Shown one piece after another: positions 21,871-48,931 of a stretch of 64,000 nucleotides of DNA; within the stretch, counting starts at the first letter, position 1, and each line of letters opens with the position of its first letter. The position numbers and the translations under genes are program-made. This DNA comes from Dictyostelium discoideum. Lineage: Eukaryota. Below the pieces are notes generated by a model. It worked only from the letters and a program-made list of their open reading frames with translations. It did no database searches and was not told where the DNA came from. The stretch covers positions 800,001 to 864,000 of the forward strand of contig CM000152.2 of assembly GCA_000004695.1 (NCBI GenBank), in the 5' to 3' direction.

Positions 21871-22323
21871 ATGAAATTTATAATTACAATTTTATTATTT
21901 GCTTTATTAACCATTAGTTTCAGTTCTGCCTCTGAAGATAGCTTCCAATGTGGTAGATATGCATGTTTACCAGGCCATTCTTGTATTTGTGATAATGGTG
22001 TTTATAGATGTGTTTATGTTTGTGAAGAAGTAACAATCGTTCAAACTATTACTGATTCATGGGTTGATAGTGAAAAGAAACCAAGTGTTAAAGTAAATGT
22101 TGATGTTATCAATCATACTCATCGTACAATTAAGGATATAGTAATTGCAACTGATGCTCATTTAAATTCCGGTCAAATTTGGGGTGCCCACTTAAATGGT
22201 TTCTTATTAGATTTCCCAGATTACGTTTCAATTGCTCCAGGTCAAATTCATTCATTTGGTTATATTAATAGAGGTACTAGTGCTGCTCATCTTTGGGTTC
22301 AACATGTTTTCATCTCTGCTTAA
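21871..22323 (+). CDS. Small secreted protein of 150 aa with an N-terminal Cys-rich knot and a C-terminal beta-rich domain.
   Basis: Single ORF. Signal MKFIITILLFALLTISFSSA. Then CGRYACLPGHSCICDNGVYRCVYVC. C-terminal region ...SIAPGQIHSFGYINRG...HLWVQHVF. It may be a carbohydrate-binding-type beta-sandwich; this is unverified. Confidence 0.6.
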   Translation: MKFIITILLFALLTISFSSASEDSFQCGRYACLPGHSCICDNGVYRCVYVCEEVTIVQTITDSWVDSEKKPSVKVNVDVINHTHRTIKDIVIATDAHLNSGQIWGAHLNGFLLDFPDYVSIAPGQIHSFGYINRGTSAAHLWVQHVFISA

Positions 22324-40599: not shown

Positions 40600-41870
<1,271 letters not shown>

Positions 41871-43694: not shown

Positions 43695-45742
43695 TTTTCT
43701 TAATTAATTAATTAAAATAATTGCTCACTACTCCATTTATCATGTCAATATTTTAAAAGAAAAAAATCAAGAAAAAAAAGGATTTTTGTTGACAATTCTG
43801 AAAAAATTTTGATAACTTTAAAGTTTTTGGTTTTGTTTATTGTTTATTGTTTATTGTTTATTGTTATTTATTTTCCATATTTCTATTTTTTTTAAAAAAG
43901 TTTTTATTATTATTGTTCACATTTTTATTTAAATTATACATTTTTGGAAATTTCTTTTTTTATACTTTTTGCTACTATGATGACAATAATTAATTATTTA
44001 TGTGGTGGATTATGAGGTTTATGTGATTCTCTTTTTATGTTTTTTTCATTAAAAAATATATATCATTTAATCTGGTGCATATTCTTTAAATTTTAAAGGG
44101 ACAATATTTTTGAAAAAAAAAAAAAAAATTAAAAAATAATATTAAAATAAAAATAAAAAATAAAAATAATTAAAAAAGAAATAAAAAAATAAAATTAAAT
44201 AAAATAATTAATTAAAAATTTTATTTAGAGTAGAATGATAATTACAATTATCATATTTTTAAATTATTAAATGGGGGTTCTATTTTTATTTATTTATTAT
44301 TTTTTTTTTTATTAATATAATATTTATTATTGTCAACAATAAGTTTTTTTTTTTTTTTTTATTCTTTTTTTTTTTTGATCAATTTTCTTAGTATCTTTAT
44401 TGGGAAGATATGTATTTTTTAATTAAATTTTTTTTAACATCCTAATCAAATAATTTCATTAATTGGCTTTTTTTCAATATTACATAATTAACAAGAATTG
44501 ATACACATGAAATCATTTGTTTATAATTTTTTTTTATTTTTATTTTATTTTTTTTTTTTAATAAAATTATTTGAAACCCCCAATCAAATATAGTTTTCAT
44601 AGTTTAAAAAAAAAAAAACAAACAAAATTGTTTTAAATTTTAAAATACACTTGCTTTTAACACAAAGTTTGAAAGGACGTAAATTTGTCGGAATTATTTT
44701 CAAAGAGAGAGATTAACAATAGTTTAAATTATAATCCCAATCTAGCATGTTTGCGTGTTGATTTTTTGTTTTTATATTTTGTGTGTGTTTATTTTAAAAT
44801 TTTAAACCATTAATTTATTTTTTGTATAAAATAGTGTTTTTGTGTTTAGTGTGTCTTTGTGGTTTTGGGGTTATTTTTTAAAAAAAAATGATAAAAAAGT
44901 AATATGTTACATCGGTCAAAAATAACAATAATCATTTTTTAAATGTAATCTATTAAGTTTTTTAATTTTTTAATTTTTTATTTTATTTTATTTTAGAAAA
45001 AAAAAAAATAAAAAAAAAAAATAAAAAGAAAATGAAAGAAGGAAATTGAAATAGGGGTAATATATACAGATATATAATTTTAAAATAAAAAAAAAAAAAA
45101 AAGACAATAAATTAAAACAAAAAATAATAAAATAATAAAAATAATAATAATAATGAAAAATGATAATAGATTAGCTGATAATAACAACAATAATAATAAA
45201 AATAATAAAAATAATAATATTAAAATAAAAATAATATAAACACAAATACCACACTTCAATAACACCTACCCCTTTATATATTAATATAATTATATAATTT
45301 AATTTAAATAATATAAAATAAACATTTTAATAATAATAATAAAAATAATAATAATTAAATATTATAAAAAATAAAAAATTAATTAAAAAAAAATAAAAAA
45401 ATTTTAGTATAAATTAAAATTGAAAAAAAATTTTTTAAATCATTCAATCAAACAAACAAAAAACAACAATTTAAAAAAACAATAATTTATAGTAAAGTAA
45501 AAACAATTAAAGAATCACTAATTGTTTTTTTCTCCTCCTCACTATAAATTCCAATATTTTTTTTTAAATTAATTTCCAGCTTTTCTGTTTTTTTACACAA
45601 TCACAACCAACCCTATATCATTACTACCAACCCTATACCATTACAATCTTATTTATTAAATAATTATTATTTGTTGTATTATTTTAGTGTATATTTGTTG
45701 ATTTAATATTTATTAGCAAGTAACAAACAAAAAAAAAAAATA

Positions 45743-48700
45743 ATGTATTATCGTAAATTTGTATTCCTTTTATTAACACTTTGTGTTTTTGGTCAAAGTT
45801 TTGTCCAATCCCGTACTGTAACACTTGATGGAACTTCTTGTGGTAAATGCCAATTGGAGTCAATGATTTCATCATTAGCTGGTGGTGCTTTAAGCTCACT
45901 TGATGATGTTGTTATCAAAGGTGTCCCAAATGCTGTCTACACAATCGCAAAACCAGTTCTCTGTCGTGCAATGAATATTACAAGTGGTACTGTCAATTTA
46001 GCATCAACTATTGATTTAAGAGGTAACTTATGGATTGCATCAGGTGCAAGCATGATCATCACTGGTGCCATTAAAAGTGTTTCCAATGTTTTCGTCACTG
46101 TTGATGGTATCGTTACAGTTAGAGGTGGTGCATCTTTAATTGCCAACTTAAACGTTAATGGTAAATTAAATATTGAAGCAGGTTCATTGACTGTCAATGG
46201 TTTCATTGCAAGTGCAACTGCCTTACCAATTGTTTCAGGTGCAGGTCAATTAATCAACAATGGTAAATGTATTTATAATGCAGTCCCAACCATCCTTGGA
46301 ACTGGTCAATTCATTGTCAATGGTGCCACTCAATTATCAAAAGGTATCACTTGTCAAGACAAAGCAATCCTCTCCATTGCATCAAAAGCAACTGTTGATA
46401 TCCTTGCCAACTCAATCTTTGCCGCTCCAATTGCAATTGCAAGCAATGCTGAAATTAAATTAACCAGTGGTAACCATGTATTCAATGGTGTAAATGGTGC
46501 AACCAACTCCATCATGACCATCGTAAATGGTGCAGTCTCATTAAATGCCCCAAGTACCTGTCACACTGTTGACCTCACTGGTGCTGGTTCAATCTTAGTT
46601 AACTCCAACTCTGTCATCAACACAATTAAAGCCGCAGCAACTGCTCAAGTTAACGTTGCCAAAGCTGGTCTCCTCAACATTAATGGTATTGCTGATATTA
46701 AAGCCATCCTCAACTTAAAAGATACTGCCAACGTTGTCGTCGCTGCCAAAGCCACTGCTAACCTCTTAGGTGGTGTTAATGCTATTGCTCAATCACAAAT
46801 TCAAGCTATGGATAGCTCTATCCTCAACATGGGTAAAACCTGTACTCTCTCACAACCAATCATCATGGGTAAACAAGCTGTTATGAACGCAATGGAAGGT
46901 ACTCACTCATGGACTCAAGGTATCACCTCCCAAGTTAACTCTATCATCAACATCGGTTCAAAATCAAATATCATCGCCAACAAAGATTGTAAATTCGGTA
47001 TCCTCAACCTTGCAACTGGTTCAAATGTAAACATCAACTCTGGTACAACCATCGTCCAAGGTGCCCTCACAACTGCTTCAAACTCTGCCCTCGCTGTTAC
47101 CAACGCTGTCCTCAACTTAAAAGCAACCTCTGTTATTAAATCTGCCTTATCCATCAATGCTCAAGCAAAAGCAATCTTTGATAGCAAAGTTGACCTCTTA
47201 GCCGGTATCACCACTCATATTGATTCAACCATCGATATTAACCATAACGTAAACATCTTAGCTTCATCCACAATTAAATCTGTCACTAACCTCAATGCCA
47301 ATGGTCTCTTAGTATTCGGTGGTTCAAAAGGTGTTAGTCACTCTTGCTCTGGTGATATCACTTCTGATGCCAAATCAACCCTCAATGTTGTTGCTGGTGC
47401 TATTCTCCATCTCGATGGTGATGCAGTTCTTGCTGGTACTCATAAATTAGTTGATGGTTCACAAATCATTGTAAACGGTAATGCTAATATCATCTCTGGT
47501 TTAACCTCAACTGGTTCAGCTCTTTCTCACTTTACTGTTGGTCCAACTGGTAGCTGTGTCCTCGGTAATACCCCAATGCCAACTCTCCCATCATTCCCAA
47601 CCATCCCAGGTTTCCCATCATTCCCATCTGCTTCTCAAAAATCATGGAGTCATCACGGTCACTCAAATAATGGTAACAACGGTAACAACGGTAACAATGG
47701 TAACAATGGTAACAATGGTAACAACGGTAACAACGGTAACAACGGTAACAACAACGGTAATAACGGTAATAACGGTAATAACGGTAACAACGGTAACAAT
47801 GGTAACAACGGTAACAATGGTAACAATGGTAACAATGGTAACAATGGTAACAACGGTAATAACGGTAACAATGGTCAATCATCAGGTTCAAACCAAATGC
47901 CATCAAGCACTATTTCATTCCCATCATCTGGTTCAGCATCATCTGGTTCATTCCCATCATCATCAACTGGTTCAAACCAAATGCCATCAAGCACTATTTC
48001 ATTCCCATCATCTGGTTCAGCCTCATCTGGTTCATTCCCATCATCTGGTTCAGCTTCATCTGGTTCATTCCCATCATCTGGTTCATCAAACAATGGTCAA
48101 ACCTCAGGAAAATCAACCACCACAACTACTACTACTTCCTCAAGCTCATCATCAAGCTCAATTACAAATATCAATGGTAATGTTATCATCCAAACTGGTG
48201 GTTCATTAGATGTTTTGGGTAAATGTAATGTTGGTTCAACTGTTCAAAACTTAGGTTCATTAACCCTCACTCAACCAATGGTCATTGCAGGTAATGCCTT
48301 CACTCAAACAAGTGCTACTGCCGTCTTAAATATGGTCGCTGGTGGTTCAATTGAATCAAAAGTTATTGATTTCACTCATGGTACCATTCAAGGTGTTGGT
48401 GCTCTTAAATGTGGTACTTGTAACTTTGCCAATAAGATCGCTGCTAACCTCAACATTGTTGGTAACGTTAAAATGGCCGCAACTGCAACTGTCTATGCAA
48501 ACATTGATGCTTTAATGTCAATCACCACCTCAACCCAAACCTCAATCTCTCAATCATCAACCAAGACTGTCAACGGTAAGACCACCACTCAATCATCATC
48601 AAGCTCATCATCATCCATCTCTAAACAATTCGTTCCAATGATCGTTTGTTCAGGTACTGCTGATGTTGCTGGTAACCTCAATGTCGTTGCCTCAGAAGCC

Positions 48701-48931
48701 AATCAAGCTAAAATTGCCTCTGGTACTGTATTCAAATTCATCTCAGCCCCAGTTGTTAAAGGTAATGTCTCCTCAGTTAGCTGTCTCACCTCAAGCACTG
48801 CTGCTGCTGCTCAACAAGCTGCCGGTGCTGCTGCTGCTGCTGCCCAAAAAGCTGCTATGGCTGCTGCCTCTAAAGTTTGGTCAATTGTAAATTCACCATG
48901 TAACTGTGAATGTGGATTGAAGAGATTATAA
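45743..48931 (+). CDS. Large secreted repeat protein of 1062 aa. It is probably a beta-helix / adhesin- or matrix-like protein, with a (GNN)~68 array and Ser/Thr-rich mucin-like repeats.
   Basis: One uninterrupted ORF. Signal MYYRKFVFLLLTLCVFGQSFVQS. There are long runs of short beta-strand-like segments rich in G, N, A, S, T, V and I (for example ASGASMIITGAIKSVSNVFVTVDGIVTVRGGASLIANLNVNGKLNIEAGSLTVNG). The (GNN) array lies at 47669-47873. Two copies of an 84-bp Ser-rich repeat follow (GSNQMPSSTISFPSSGSASSGSFPSS). A poly-Ala/Gln segment follows and the C-terminus is CNCECGLKRL. Codon usage is strongly biased to the C/T-ending set typical of highly expressed Dictyostelium genes (ggt, cca, atc, gtc, acc, aac). 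Confidence 0.75.
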   Translation: MYYRKFVFLLLTLCVFGQSFVQSRTVTLDGTSCGKCQLESMISSLAGGALSSLDDVVIKGVPNAVYTIAKPVLCRAMNITSGTVNLASTIDLRGNLWIASGASMIITGAIKSVSNVFVTVDGIVTVRGGASLIANLNVNGKLNIEAGSLTVNGFIASATALPIVSGAGQLINNGKCIYNAVPTILGTGQFIVNGATQLSKGITCQDKAILSIASKATVDILANSIFAAPIAIASNAEIKLTSGNHVFNGVNGATNSIMTIVNGAVSLNAPSTCHTVDLTGAGSILVNSNSVINTIKAAATAQVNVAKAGLLNINGIADIKAILNLKDTANVVVAAKATANLLGGVNAIAQSQIQAMDSSILNMGKTCTLSQPIIMGKQAVMNAMEGTHSWTQGITSQVNSIINIGSKSNIIANKDCKFGILNLATGSNVNINSGTTIVQGALTTASNSALAVTNAVLNLKATSVIKSALSINAQAKAIFDSKVDLLAGITTHIDSTIDINHNVNILASSTIKSVTNLNANGLLVFGGSKGVSHSCSGDITSDAKSTLNVVAGAILHLDGDAVLAGTHKLVDGSQIIVNGNANIISGLTSTGSALSHFTVGPTGSCVLGNTPMPTLPSFPTIPGFPSFPSASQKSWSHHGHSNNGNNGNNGNNGNNGNNGNNGNNGNNGNNNGNNGNNGNNGNNGNNGNNGNNGNNGNNGNNGNNGNNGNNGQSSGSNQMPSSTISFPSSGSASSGSFPSSSTGSNQMPSSTISFPSSGSASSGSFPSSGSASSGSFPSSGSSNNGQTSGKSTTTTTTTSSSSSSSSITNINGNVIIQTGGSLDVLGKCNVGSTVQNLGSLTLTQPMVIAGNAFTQTSATAVLNMVAGGSIESKVIDFTHGTIQGVGALKCGTCNFANKIAANLNIVGNVKMAATATVYANIDALMSITTSTQTSISQSSTKTVNGKTTTQSSSSSSSSISKQFVPMIVCSGTADVAGNLNVVASEANQAKIASGTVFKFISAPVVKGNVSSVSCLTSSTAAAAQQAAGAAAAAAQKAAMAAASKVWSIVNSPCNCECGLKRL
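47669..47873 (+). repeat. 9-bp coding tandem repeat, (GGTAACAAY)n of about 23 units, encoding (GNN)n.
   Basis: Direct reading: ggtaacaacggtaacaatggtaacaat.... The ORFs on the other frames and strand (47532..48209, 47659..47878 and others) are artefacts of this repeat. Confidence 0.9.

What the first reader, a model, noticed from the sequence alone, without database searches (positions are those of the whole stretch)
45743..48931. Large secreted beta-helix-like repeat protein with highly-expressed-gene codon bias and a (GNN)68 array
This is a 1062-residue uninterrupted ORF with a signal peptide. Hundreds of residues are short alternating small/aliphatic segments rich in G, N and V, consistent with a parallel beta-helix. 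It carries a perfect (GNN)~68 nonapeptide-DNA array, two 84-bp Ser-rich repeats, a poly-Ala/Gln segment and a Cys-containing C-terminus, CNCECGLKRL. Codon usage (ggt, cca, atc, gtc, acc, aac, ttc, tac) matches the highly expressed Dictyostelium gene class, in contrast to its neighbours. That points to an abundant extracellular structural, adhesion, slime-sheath or spore-coat component. I cannot match it to a named Dictyostelium protein.
Basis: partly seen in the sequence, partly recalled or inferred. Interest (0 to 1): 0.6.

Follow-up and report, generated by a model that had tools for sequence, protein, structure and literature searches.

The report
Prestalk matrix beta-helix protein rsc12
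The ORF is the already named but functionally uncharacterised Dictyostelium discoideum gene rsc12, a very highly expressed, signal-peptide-bearing prestalk protein that is predicted to fold into a long beta-helix rod like those of bacterial adhesins; its "collagen-like" (GNN) run is a strain-variable low-complexity loop.

The parts
45543..45548 (+). TATAAA box followed by a T-run, about 200 nt upstream of the ATG (putative core promoter)
   Evidence: Read directly from the sequence. Promoter function is inferred from the usual Dictyostelium promoter layout, which is my own knowledge.
45606..45644 (+). Tandem 20-bp repeat ACCAACCCTATA(T/C)CATTAC in the presumed 5' leader
   Evidence: TRF reports period 20, 2 copies, 94% match. 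The motif CCTATAYCATTAC has its only two exact copies in the 64-kb window here, plus one 1-mismatch match elsewhere; 0.03 matches are expected by chance. A similar doubled '..CATTAC' core lies upstream of the P. violaceum and T. lacteum orthologues, and inside assembled T. lacteum mRNAs.
45743..48931 (+). rsc12 coding sequence (DDB_G0277871), single exon, 1062 aa plus stop
   Evidence: ORF. It has the same length and the same orthologues (DLA_09260 827 aa, PPL_10094 808 aa, DFA_03575 809 aa) as the rsc12 row in Glockner 2016 suppl. file 2. The order of RefSeq accessions is anchored by clmA and DDB_G0278415.
45743..45811 (+). Signal peptide, aa 1-23
   Evidence: Hydrophobic N-terminus and no other transmembrane-like segment. 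The layout is conserved in all orthologues. Published note 'has signal peptide'.
45812..47569 (+). N-terminal cap (conserved C33/C36, DD54-55, sequon N78-I-T) and main right-handed beta-helix, aa 24-609
47570..48160 (+). Low-complexity insert, aa 610-806: Pro-rich, His-rich, (GNN)22, Ser-rich repeats, then T7 and S8 runs
   Evidence: pLDDT is about 30. The insert is absent at this position from the five orthologues compared, from P. violaceum (plus a close JGI relative), T. lacteum, H. album and C. fasciculata. Unit numbers differ between D. discoideum strains and D. citrinum.
47672..47872 (+). (GGT AAY AAY) array: (GNN)9-N-(GNN)13
   Evidence: This is the only stretch that hits Pfam Collagen (33.4 bits against a cut-off of 27.2).
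47878..48085 (+). Ser-rich repeats: 84 bp x 2 (96% identical) overlapping 33 bp x 2.7. Probable mucin-type O-glycosylation region (inferred).
   Evidence: Repeat number varies between strains.
48161..48517 (+). C-terminal beta segment, aa 807-925. In the orthologue's model the equivalent stretch continues the beta-helix.
   Evidence: pLDDT is 81-93. In the orthologue P0001 the model stays confident (pLDDT 84-94) across the point where the insert sits here.
48518..48628 (+). Second Ser/Thr-rich insert, aa 926-962
   Evidence: Low pLDDT. Absent or much shorter in the orthologues.
48629..48796 (+). Last conserved beta segment, aa 963-1018 (FVPMIV...VSSVSCLTSST)
   Evidence: Alignment. pLDDT is 55-72.
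48797..48868 (+). Ala/Gln-rich segment, aa 1019-1042, predicted helix
   Evidence: TRF. DSSP assigns a helix at aa 1020-1038, but with low confidence.
48869..48928 (+). Conserved C-terminal motif SKVWSIVNSPCNCECGLKRL (W-x2-V-x3-C-x-C)
   Evidence: W1046, V1049, C1053 and C1055 are invariant in the six orthologues aligned. In the paralogue family a hydrophobic GPI-like tail takes its place.

Best explanation
The ORF is rsc12 (DDB_G0277871) of Dictyostelium discoideum.

What it most likely does: it encodes a secreted protein made in very large amounts by prestalk cells from the mound stage onward. The protein accumulates at culmination and in the fruiting body.

How it is built:
- After signal-peptide cleavage, most of the chain folds into one long right-handed parallel beta-helix. 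I estimate roughly 30 rungs and a rod of about 14 nm.
- The N-terminal cap carries conserved cysteines and a conserved N-glycosylation sequon.
- The rod ends in an Ala-rich helix and a conserved Cys-x-Cys motif.

How I think it works (inferred):
- The rod is a structural or adhesive element of the prestalk-derived extracellular matrix (slime sheath or stalk tube).
- It is held there by binding along its flat Asn/Ser/Thr-rich faces, possibly to cellulose or other matrix polymers.
- Disulfide bonds through the C-terminal cysteines may cross-link it.
- This would explain why disrupting the gene disturbs only culmination.

The low-complexity segment: the roughly 195-residue GNN/Ser/Thr segment is a D. 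discoideum-lineage insertion at a position that falls in a turn between strands of the orthologue's helix model. It is probably an O-glycosylated, disordered 'bristle'. It grows and shrinks by replication slippage. It is not a collagen domain.

Shown: gene identity, predicted fold, expression pattern, mutant phenotype, phyletic distribution and repeat polymorphism.
Inferred: secretion into the matrix, binding partners, cross-linking and glycosylation.
For: Identity:
- Glockner 2016 suppl. file 2 lists rsc12 as DDB_G0277871, 1062 aa, with orthologues DLA_09260 (827 aa), PPL_10094 (808 aa) and DFA_03575 (809 aa). These are the proteins my searches found.
- Accession order fits. Q54Y53 is XP_642349, lying between shkC/PTPLA and clmA (XP_642352), and the window's clmA exon hits the ANTH domain.

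Fold:
- AF2 models.

Not an enzyme:
- Across 17 orthologues and paralogues, the conserved positions are almost all G, N, C, L or S. The only conserved charged residues are D54 and D55.

Expression:
- mRNA at 0, 4, 8, 12, 16, 20 and 24 h is 0.29, 2.9, 147, 922, 1403, 2259 and 3033.
- Prestalk 1840 against prespore 61. Stalk 101, cup 31, spore 9.4, vegetative 0.18.
- It falls in the same k-means cluster as ecmA, at higher levels.
- The protein is detected only at culmination (7e7-1e8) and in fruiting bodies (2-2.8e8). SP70 gives 7e7 and 4.6e8 in the same data.
- Codon bias agrees.

Phenotype:
- REMI strain V31568 scores wild type for growth, waves, aggregation, mound and slug, and -1 for culmination.

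Phylogeny:
- Orthologues were found in P. violaceum, T. lacteum, H. album and C. fasciculata. Published tables add D. purpureum.
- A. subglobosum, which makes an acellular stalk, has none.
- The PTPLA gene is the upstream neighbour in both D. discoideum and T. lacteum.
- The T. lacteum orthologue assembled as a full-length mRNA in six RNA-seq runs.

Low-complexity insert:
- Absent at this position from the orthologues compared.
- Product lengths are 1062, 1077 and 1079 aa in D. discoideum strains and 1042 aa in D. citrinum. The GNN array has 22 triplets here and 25 in strain ACTFIR, and the Ser-repeat number also changes. The folded parts differ by only a few substitutions.
Against: - No experiment here or in the papers I could read localises the protein to the sheath, the stalk tube or any extracellular fraction.
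- The mutant evidence is one REMI strain, a mild score (-1), two data points and no complementation. Glockner's table itself says 'little info on phenotype'.
- The protein has few aromatic residues (4 W, 5 Y), which is unlike classical cellulose-binding surfaces.
- The AF2 models rest on alignments of only 4-5 sequences.
- The C-terminal 50 residues are modelled with low confidence.
Confidence: 0.62

Rival explanations
1. Rsc12 is a beta-helix enzyme (polysaccharide lyase, glycoside hydrolase or epimerase) that prestalk cells secrete to remodel cellulose or other matrix polysaccharides during culmination.
Confidence: 0.1
2. Rsc12 is mainly a cell-cell or cell-substrate adhesin, or a signalling ligand, held on the prestalk cell surface (for example by a disulfide bond to a membrane partner). 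In this reading it is not a bulk matrix component.
For: The closest structural relatives are adhesins: Ag43, UpaB, Hap, EtpA, HMW1, TibA, the Candida Awp proteins and the L. reuteri SRRP. The homologous paralogue family (hhalign probability 100%, E 4.9e-48 over 772 columns) ends in a GPI-anchor-like hydrophobic tail, so that family probably sits on the cell surface.
Against: Rsc12 has neither a transmembrane segment nor a GPI-type tail. Its expression level and timing track the matrix protein ecmA. The protein peaks in the fruiting body, where stalk cells are dead.
Confidence: 0.2
3. The (GNN)22 array is a true collagen-like triple helix that trimerises the protein. This is what the database annotation 'collagen domain' implies.
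For: Pfam Collagen scores 33.4 bits against a gathering cut-off of 27.2 on aa 672-712. PDB collagen chains match at E down to 2e-4. Glockner 2016 notes a 'collagen domain'.
Against: The match reflects only Gly-X-Y periodicity. The array has no Pro. An extra Asn breaks the triplet register after unit 9. The array is absent from the orthologues compared. Its unit number and interruptions vary between strains and in D. citrinum, including G-to-S changes. In the orthologue's model this position lies in a turn between strands of the helix, not at a terminus.
Confidence: 0.03

Closest known systems
rsc12 / DDB_G0277871 (UniProt Q54Y53, XP_642349.1), D. discoideum AX4
   Same: It is the same gene. 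The length is 1062 aa, the orthologue set is the same, and the chromosomal neighbours are the same.
   Different: Nothing differs in sequence as far as I could test. Existing annotation says only 'unknown; signal peptide and collagen domain; aberrant culmination'. In what I could read, no one has described the beta-helix fold, the GPI-tailed paralogue family or the loop nature of the 'collagen' run.
Passenger domains of bacterial type V autotransporters and two-partner-secretion exoproteins (Vag8, pertactin, UpaB, Ag43, Hap, Pet, EtpA, HMW1)
   Different: Sequence identity is only 9-14%, and there is no Pfam or PDB sequence match. It has a eukaryotic signal peptide and no beta-barrel translocator or TPS domain. 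Conserved cysteines and an N-glycosylation sequon are present. Sequence searches give no evidence of horizontal transfer.
Beta-helix or beta-solenoid adhesins joined to Ser/Thr-rich regions: Candida glabrata Awp1/Awp3b/Awp14 and the Lactobacillus reuteri serine-rich-repeat protein
   Different: In Rsc12 the Ser-rich region interrupts the helix rather than following it. It is lineage-specific and polymorphic. Rsc12 has no GPI signal and no LPXTG motif.
EcmA/EcmB prestalk extracellular matrix proteins of D. discoideum
   Same: Post-aggregative, prestalk-enriched, very abundant expression. rsc12 sits in the same expression cluster as ecmA. It has a signal peptide, and its mutant phenotype concerns culmination and morphogenesis.
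   Different: The fold is unrelated. Rsc12 has none of the 24-residue Cys-rich repeats and no Dictyostelium-specific Pfam domain.
Collagen triple-helix repeat (PF01391)
   Same: 22 Gly-X-Y triplets score above the Pfam gathering cut-off.
   Different: No proline, a break in register, not conserved in the orthologues compared, polymorphic between strains, and predicted to be disordered.

Membership tests
rsc12 orthogroup (DDB_G0277871) | Same protein length and the same listed orthologues as the published rsc12 entry | tested here: met
   The ORF is 1062 aa. My sequence searches returned DLAC_09260 (827 aa), PPL_10094 (808 aa) and DFA_03575 (first 809 aa). Glockner 2016 suppl. file 2 lists exactly these for rsc12.
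rsc12 orthogroup (DDB_G0277871) | Chromosomal position in AX4 (XP_642349, between the PTPLA gene and clmA) | tested here: met
   Neighbouring ORFs are exact matches to the AX4 proteins XP_642337, XP_642338, XP_642341 and XP_642354. The window's 695-aa gene has an ANTH domain, making it clmA, XP_642352. Gene order is given.
Right-handed parallel beta-helix fold (pertactin-like / pectin-lyase-like) | Stacked rungs of three short beta-strands, and structural superposition on solved beta-helices | tested here: met
Right-handed parallel beta-helix fold (pertactin-like / pectin-lyase-like) | Membership of a curated sequence family (Pfam Beta_helix, Pectate_lyase_3, Pertactin, Chlam_PMP, etc.) | tested here: not met
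   Neither the target at E<=1 nor eight relatives at E<=0.1 gave any Pfam hit other than Collagen on the GNN run and two sub-threshold hits (DUF3726, MTS). A profile search of PDB sequences found nothing.
Bacterial type V autotransporter | C-terminal outer-membrane beta-barrel translocator | tested here: not met
   No Pfam hit to any translocator family, including the Autotransporter beta-domain. The C-terminus is an Ala-rich helix followed by a Cys motif.
Collagen | Long uninterrupted Gly-X-Y repeats | tested here: inconclusive
   There are 22 triplets, and the Pfam score is 33.4 against a cut-off of 27.2. One extra Asn shifts the register after triplet 9.
Collagen | Imino-acid-rich X/Y positions and conservation as a functional domain | tested here: not met
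   The array has no Pro. It is absent from the orthologues compared. It varies between strains. pLDDT is about 30.
Beta-helix polysaccharide lyases, hydrolases and epimerases | Conserved catalytic cluster of acidic and basic residues on the helix | tested here: not met
   A joint alignment of 17 orthologues and paralogues conserves almost only G, N, C, L and S. The only conserved charged residues are D54 and D55 at the cap. Enzyme activity itself cannot be tested with these tools.
Dictyostelium EcmA/EcmB-type prestalk matrix proteins | Cys-rich 24-residue repeats | tested here: not met
   No such Pfam domain was found, and the 19 Cys residues are scattered along the chain.
Dictyostelium EcmA/EcmB-type prestalk matrix proteins | Post-aggregative, prestalk-enriched, abundant expression | tested here: met
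   Published values in the Kin 2018 supplement: prestalk 1840 against prespore 61, 24-h level 3033, same cluster as ecmA.
GPI-anchored paralogue family (e.g. D. discoideum KAM9959049, DICPUDRAFT_76895) | C-terminal hydrophobic GPI-attachment signal | tested here: not met
   The target ends in ...CNCECGLKRL and its highest 19-residue hydropathy is 1.52. The paralogues end in tails such as ...FYLLLISILISLF. The two families are still homologous over 772 columns.

The most novel reading that the evidence does not exclude
Rsc12 and its GPI-tailed paralogue would be a Dictyostelia-specific invention: a bacterial-adhesin-like beta-helix rod. In this reading Rsc12 is a major load-bearing, polysaccharide-binding component of the prestalk matrix, as abundant as EcmA, and is needed to build a cellular stalk. 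Its loss in Acytostelium would then be linked to that genus's acellular stalk.
Probability: 0.2. Interest if true: 0.6.

Novelty: new member of a known kind. Interest (0 to 1): 0.35.

Why it matters
rsc12 is one of the most highly expressed prestalk genes; its mRNA exceeds that of ecmA. Its protein reaches spore-coat-protein levels late in development. Yet its function is listed as unknown and it is annotated as having a 'collagen domain'.

This analysis changes three things:
- It assigns a fold: a long beta-helix rod of the type bacterial and fungal adhesins use.
- It shows that the collagen hit comes from a slippage-prone low-complexity loop.
- It gives Dictyostelium matrix biology a concrete candidate, with a testable structure, for sheath or stalk-tube mechanics.

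It also defines a family found only in Dictyostelia, with no Pfam model and with one secreted and one GPI-tailed branch. Neither the gene nor the fold class is new.

Tried and rejected
- The word-indexed protein search, run three times, never returned a D. discoideum-group orthologue. The exact sequence is 'not in the collection', although the gene is called in NCBI assemblies. The AX4 name therefore had to be found indirectly.
- Guessed identifiers (DDB_G0278403-413), orthologue locus tags and Q54Y52-54 gave no full-text hits. The identifier turned up only in supplementary tables.
- The afdb50 library was unavailable.
- A test for sequence periodicity in the helix (BLOSUM and hydrophobic autocorrelation) did not exceed shuffled controls. 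The rungs are irregular at the sequence level.
- Horizontal transfer from bacteria: the full HMMER scan of 1.84 billion representatives found 14 hits. Thirteen are Rsc12 orthologues or paralogues, and all of those with a named source are dictyostelid. One is a weak repeat-driven hit to a bacterial-looking protein (E 2.5e-5). I rejected transfer for lack of evidence.
- The low-complexity region as an intron: rejected. It keeps the reading frame, has 41% GC and shows the strongest optimal-codon use in the gene.
- D. discoideum transcripts could not be retrieved from Logan assemblies. Exact-product look-up fails for a gene whose repeats break short-read assembly.
- Sharp & Devine 1989 was not held in the library.
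Full report
**1. Observation**

The window holds a single uninterrupted ORF at 45743..48931 (+), ATG to TAA, encoding 1062 aa. Its GC content is about 40%, set in flanks of 10-18% GC. A TATAAA box and a T-run lie about 200 nt upstream, and the start context is A-rich.

The N-terminus, MYYRKFVFLLLTLCVFGQSFVQS|RTV, looks like a signal peptide. No other 19-residue stretch reaches transmembrane-level hydropathy (maximum 1.52). The protein is 14% S, 12% N, 11% G and 11% A, with only 7 Glu and 6 Arg.

- The GGT-AAY-AAY array (47672-47872) has 22 units, or 67 residues. It reads (GNN)9-N-(GNN)13 and the DNA copies match at 91%. It does not have about 68 perfect units.
- The two 84-bp Ser-rich copies are 96% identical and overlap a 33-bp sub-repeat.
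- The Ala/Gln segment and the ...PCNCECGLKRL end are present.

Codon bias is real. GC3 is 0.30, against 0.08-0.24 in 14 other long ORFs of the window. C-ending two-fold codons are 0.51 against 0.06-0.32. GGT is 97%, CCA 100% and ATA never occurs. The genome mean GC3 is 14% (PMC8321536). Tyr, Asp and Lys codons are not biased.

**2. What it is: sequence relatives**

Pfam finds only 'Collagen', and only on the GNN run (33.4 bits; gathering cut-off 27.2). PDB sequences match only collagens, on the same run.

Homology searches found full-length relatives from Polysphondylium violaceum (CYY_005152), a close JGI relative, Cavenderia fasciculata (DFA_03575) and a EukProt dictyostelid. I then built a profile of the family and scanned 1.84 billion representative proteins without a word index. 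That gave only 14 hits at E<=1e-3:
- Orthologues from Tieghemostelium lacteum (DLAC_09260, 827 aa) and Heterostelium album (PPL_10094, 808 aa).
- A second family of about 1000 aa in Synstelium, P. violaceum, T. lacteum, Acytostelium subglobosum, H. album, D. purpureum and D. discoideum. All are annotated as hypothetical.
- One weak, repeat-driven hit to a bacterial-looking protein.

The second family ends in a hydrophobic GPI-anchor-like tail instead of the Cys motif. Even so, it is homologous to the first family over 772 columns (hhalign probability 100%, E 4.9e-48). None of these proteins has a Pfam domain. A family profile finds nothing among PDB sequences.

**3. Fold**

AlphaFold2 on the target, with only 4 sequences in the alignment, gives pLDDT 75-96 for aa 60-608 and 81-93 for aa 807-925. 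The structure is short strands, three per roughly 22 residues. pLDDT is about 30 for aa 610-806.

The orthologue P0001 lacks the low-complexity insert. Its model has mean pLDDT 83 and pTM 0.72, and strands run continuously from residue 54 to about 726. This includes the position where the D. discoideum protein carries its insert (pLDDT 84-94 there).

The closest shapes are non-enzymatic adhesin rods, at 9-17% sequence identity.

In a joint alignment of 17 orthologues and paralogues, the conserved positions are almost all G, N, C, L or S. The exceptions are D54-D55 and the sequon N78-I-[ST]. I see no catalytic-looking cluster.

**4. The low-complexity segment**

The segment aa 610-806 runs Pro-rich, His-rich, (GNN)22, Ser-rich repeats, then T7 and S8 runs. 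It is absent at this position from the P. violaceum, T. lacteum, H. album and C. fasciculata orthologues, as are two shorter Ser/Thr and Ala/Gln expansions. It is coding, not an intron: it keeps the frame, has 41% GC and has the strongest optimal-codon use in the gene.

It is polymorphic:
- The ORF DNA is 100% identical between the window and assembly GCA_054883475.1, although the surrounding 23 kb differ at 0.41%.
- D. discoideum strain ACTFIR encodes 1077 aa, ACTFIW 1079 aa and D. citrinum 1042 aa.
- In ACTFIR the array has 25 triplets, (GNN)19-SNN-(GNN)5, against 22 here.
- The Ser-repeat number also differs between strains. D. citrinum has a shorter, interrupted array.
- The flanking folded parts differ by only a few substitutions.

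The 'collagen domain' is therefore a slippage-prone, lineage-specific loop that happens to have Gly-X-Y periodicity.

**5. Identity**

Neighbouring ORFs are exact matches to AX4 proteins: DDB_G0278391, Q54Y64, DDB_G0278399 and DDB_G0278415. Gene order is SH2-kinase, PTPLA, target, a 334-aa gene, a flavoprotein, a 695-aa gene, a GTPase, then an AB-hydrolase.

UniProt and RefSeq accessions run in genomic order here, which predicted Q54Y53 / XP_642349. A proteomics supplement lists that accession as DDB_G0277871, gene rsc12. Two anchors support this: XP_642352 is clmA, and the window's 695-aa gene has an ANTH domain.

The decisive evidence is Glockner et al. [quoted passage not shown] No orthologue outside Dictyostelia is listed. 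The length and the orthologue set match my results exactly.

**6. What is known about rsc12**

*mRNA.* The Kin et al. 2018 supplement combines the Parikh 2010 time course with the authors' own cell-type TPM:
- 0.29, 2.9, 147, 922, 1403, 2259 and 3033 at 0-24 h.
- Prespore 61, prestalk 1840.
- Cup 31, spore 9.4, stalk 101, vegetative 0.18.
- The next row, ecmA, has the same profile at lower levels and falls in the same cluster.

*Protein.* In the life-cycle proteome (PMC12821622), Rsc12 is absent from vegetative, aggregation and mound samples. It is detected at culmination (7.2e7 and 1.1e8) and in fruiting bodies (2.8e8 and 2.1e8). SP70 gives 7e7 and 4.6e8 in the same data, and StaA gives 1.6e8 in fruiting bodies.

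*Mutant.* REMI strain V31568 scores wild type for growth, waves, aggregation, mound and slug, and -1 for culmination, from two data points (Sawai 2007).

*Phylogeny.* Urushihara 2015 lists rsc12 among five developmental genes with orthologues in P. pallidum and D. fasciculatum but none in A. subglobosum, which makes an acellular stalk. My search agrees: only the GPI-tailed paralogue was found there.

*Orthologue.* The T. lacteum orthologue shares the upstream PTPLA neighbour. It assembled as a full-length mRNA of about 2.6 kb in six RNA-seq runs, ERR3252989-94.

**7. Mechanism**

Shown:
- A signal-peptide-bearing, Cys-containing protein with a conserved N-glycosylation sequon.
- A predicted beta-helix fold.
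- Massive prestalk and late-development expression.
- A culmination-only mutant defect.

Inferred:
- It is secreted into the prestalk-derived matrix (sheath or stalk tube) as a rigid rod of about 14 nm.
- It binds matrix polymers along its polar flat faces.
- The invariant C-terminal Cys-x-Cys motif may cross-link it.
- The Ser/Thr-rich loop is O-glycosylated.

I put this at about 0.6. The rivals are a surface adhesin or ligand (0.2), a matrix-remodelling enzyme (0.1) and a true collagen-like trimeriser (0.03).

**8. Novelty**

The gene is already named, and public expression data and a mutant phenotype exist. Beta-helix rods are a well-known class. As far as I could check, three things are not in the literature I could read:
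- the fold assignment;
- the recognition that the 'collagen domain' is a polymorphic loop;
- the definition of a family found only in Dictyostelia, with no Pfam model and a GPI-tailed sister branch.

I rate it an informative but ordinary result: a new member of a known kind, interest 0.35.

Noticed in passing
window 45606-45644; L014 about -106 to -51; L012 about -98 to -83; L015 about -60 to -30 relative to the ATG: A doubled motif, CCTATA(T/C)CATTAC, sits in the rsc12 5' leader. Its only two exact copies in the window are here (0.03 matches expected by chance). A similar doubled '..TA(A/T)CATTAC' core lies in the same place upstream of the P. violaceum and T. lacteum orthologues, and inside assembled T. 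lacteum mRNAs. It may be a conserved 5'UTR or promoter-proximal element of this highly expressed gene.
   Followed up: partly
window 40603-41239 (and A/G-rich sequence to 41558): An (AAGA) microsatellite of about 157 units, followed by A/G-rich repeats, lies in the 5.3-kb unannotated gap between the PTPLA gene and rsc12. It gives an extreme purine skew (GC skew up to 0.98).
   Followed up: no
window 45743-48931, compared with the protein databases: The exact Rsc12 sequence, and every orthologue from the D. discoideum species group, is missing from the 15-billion-protein collection. Yet the gene is called in NCBI assemblies, and neighbouring genes from the same assemblies are present. The GPI-tailed paralogue's orthologues from those species are also present. 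I have no explanation; it made the name hard to find.
   Followed up: partly
P0004 (C. fasciculata DFA_03575, 1343 aa); L014 6078-7597: The NCBI model of the C. fasciculata orthologue is fused to an mRNA cap guanine-N7 methyltransferase. Glockner 2016 lists the gene as 809 aa, and in P. violaceum the methyltransferase is a separate downstream gene. The fusion therefore looks like an annotation artefact, and it reveals conserved synteny in those two species.
   Followed up: partly
P0003 (EukProt dictyostelid, 1700 aa): This orthologue has a long tandem array, more than ten copies by eye, of a unit of about 70 residues (GDKAVHTC...NANAILNFL) inside the helix region. This suggests that rod length can evolve by duplicating groups of rungs.
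   Followed up: no
window 35725-58970 compared with L002 (GCA_054883475.1): The window is not the assembly in which the exact protein was first found. The two differ by 36 mismatches and 17 gaps over 23 kb (99.59% identity), while the 3189-nt rsc12 ORF is identical. The window's neighbouring proteins match AX4 exactly.
   Followed up: yes
window 21871-22323 (DDB_G0278399); L003 492-1764, beyond the window end: Several small CBM49 (cellulose-binding) genes lie in the same chromosomal neighbourhood as rsc12. CBM49 proteins are a class of late matrix proteins in the proteome paper. I did not test whether they are co-regulated with rsc12.
   Followed up: no
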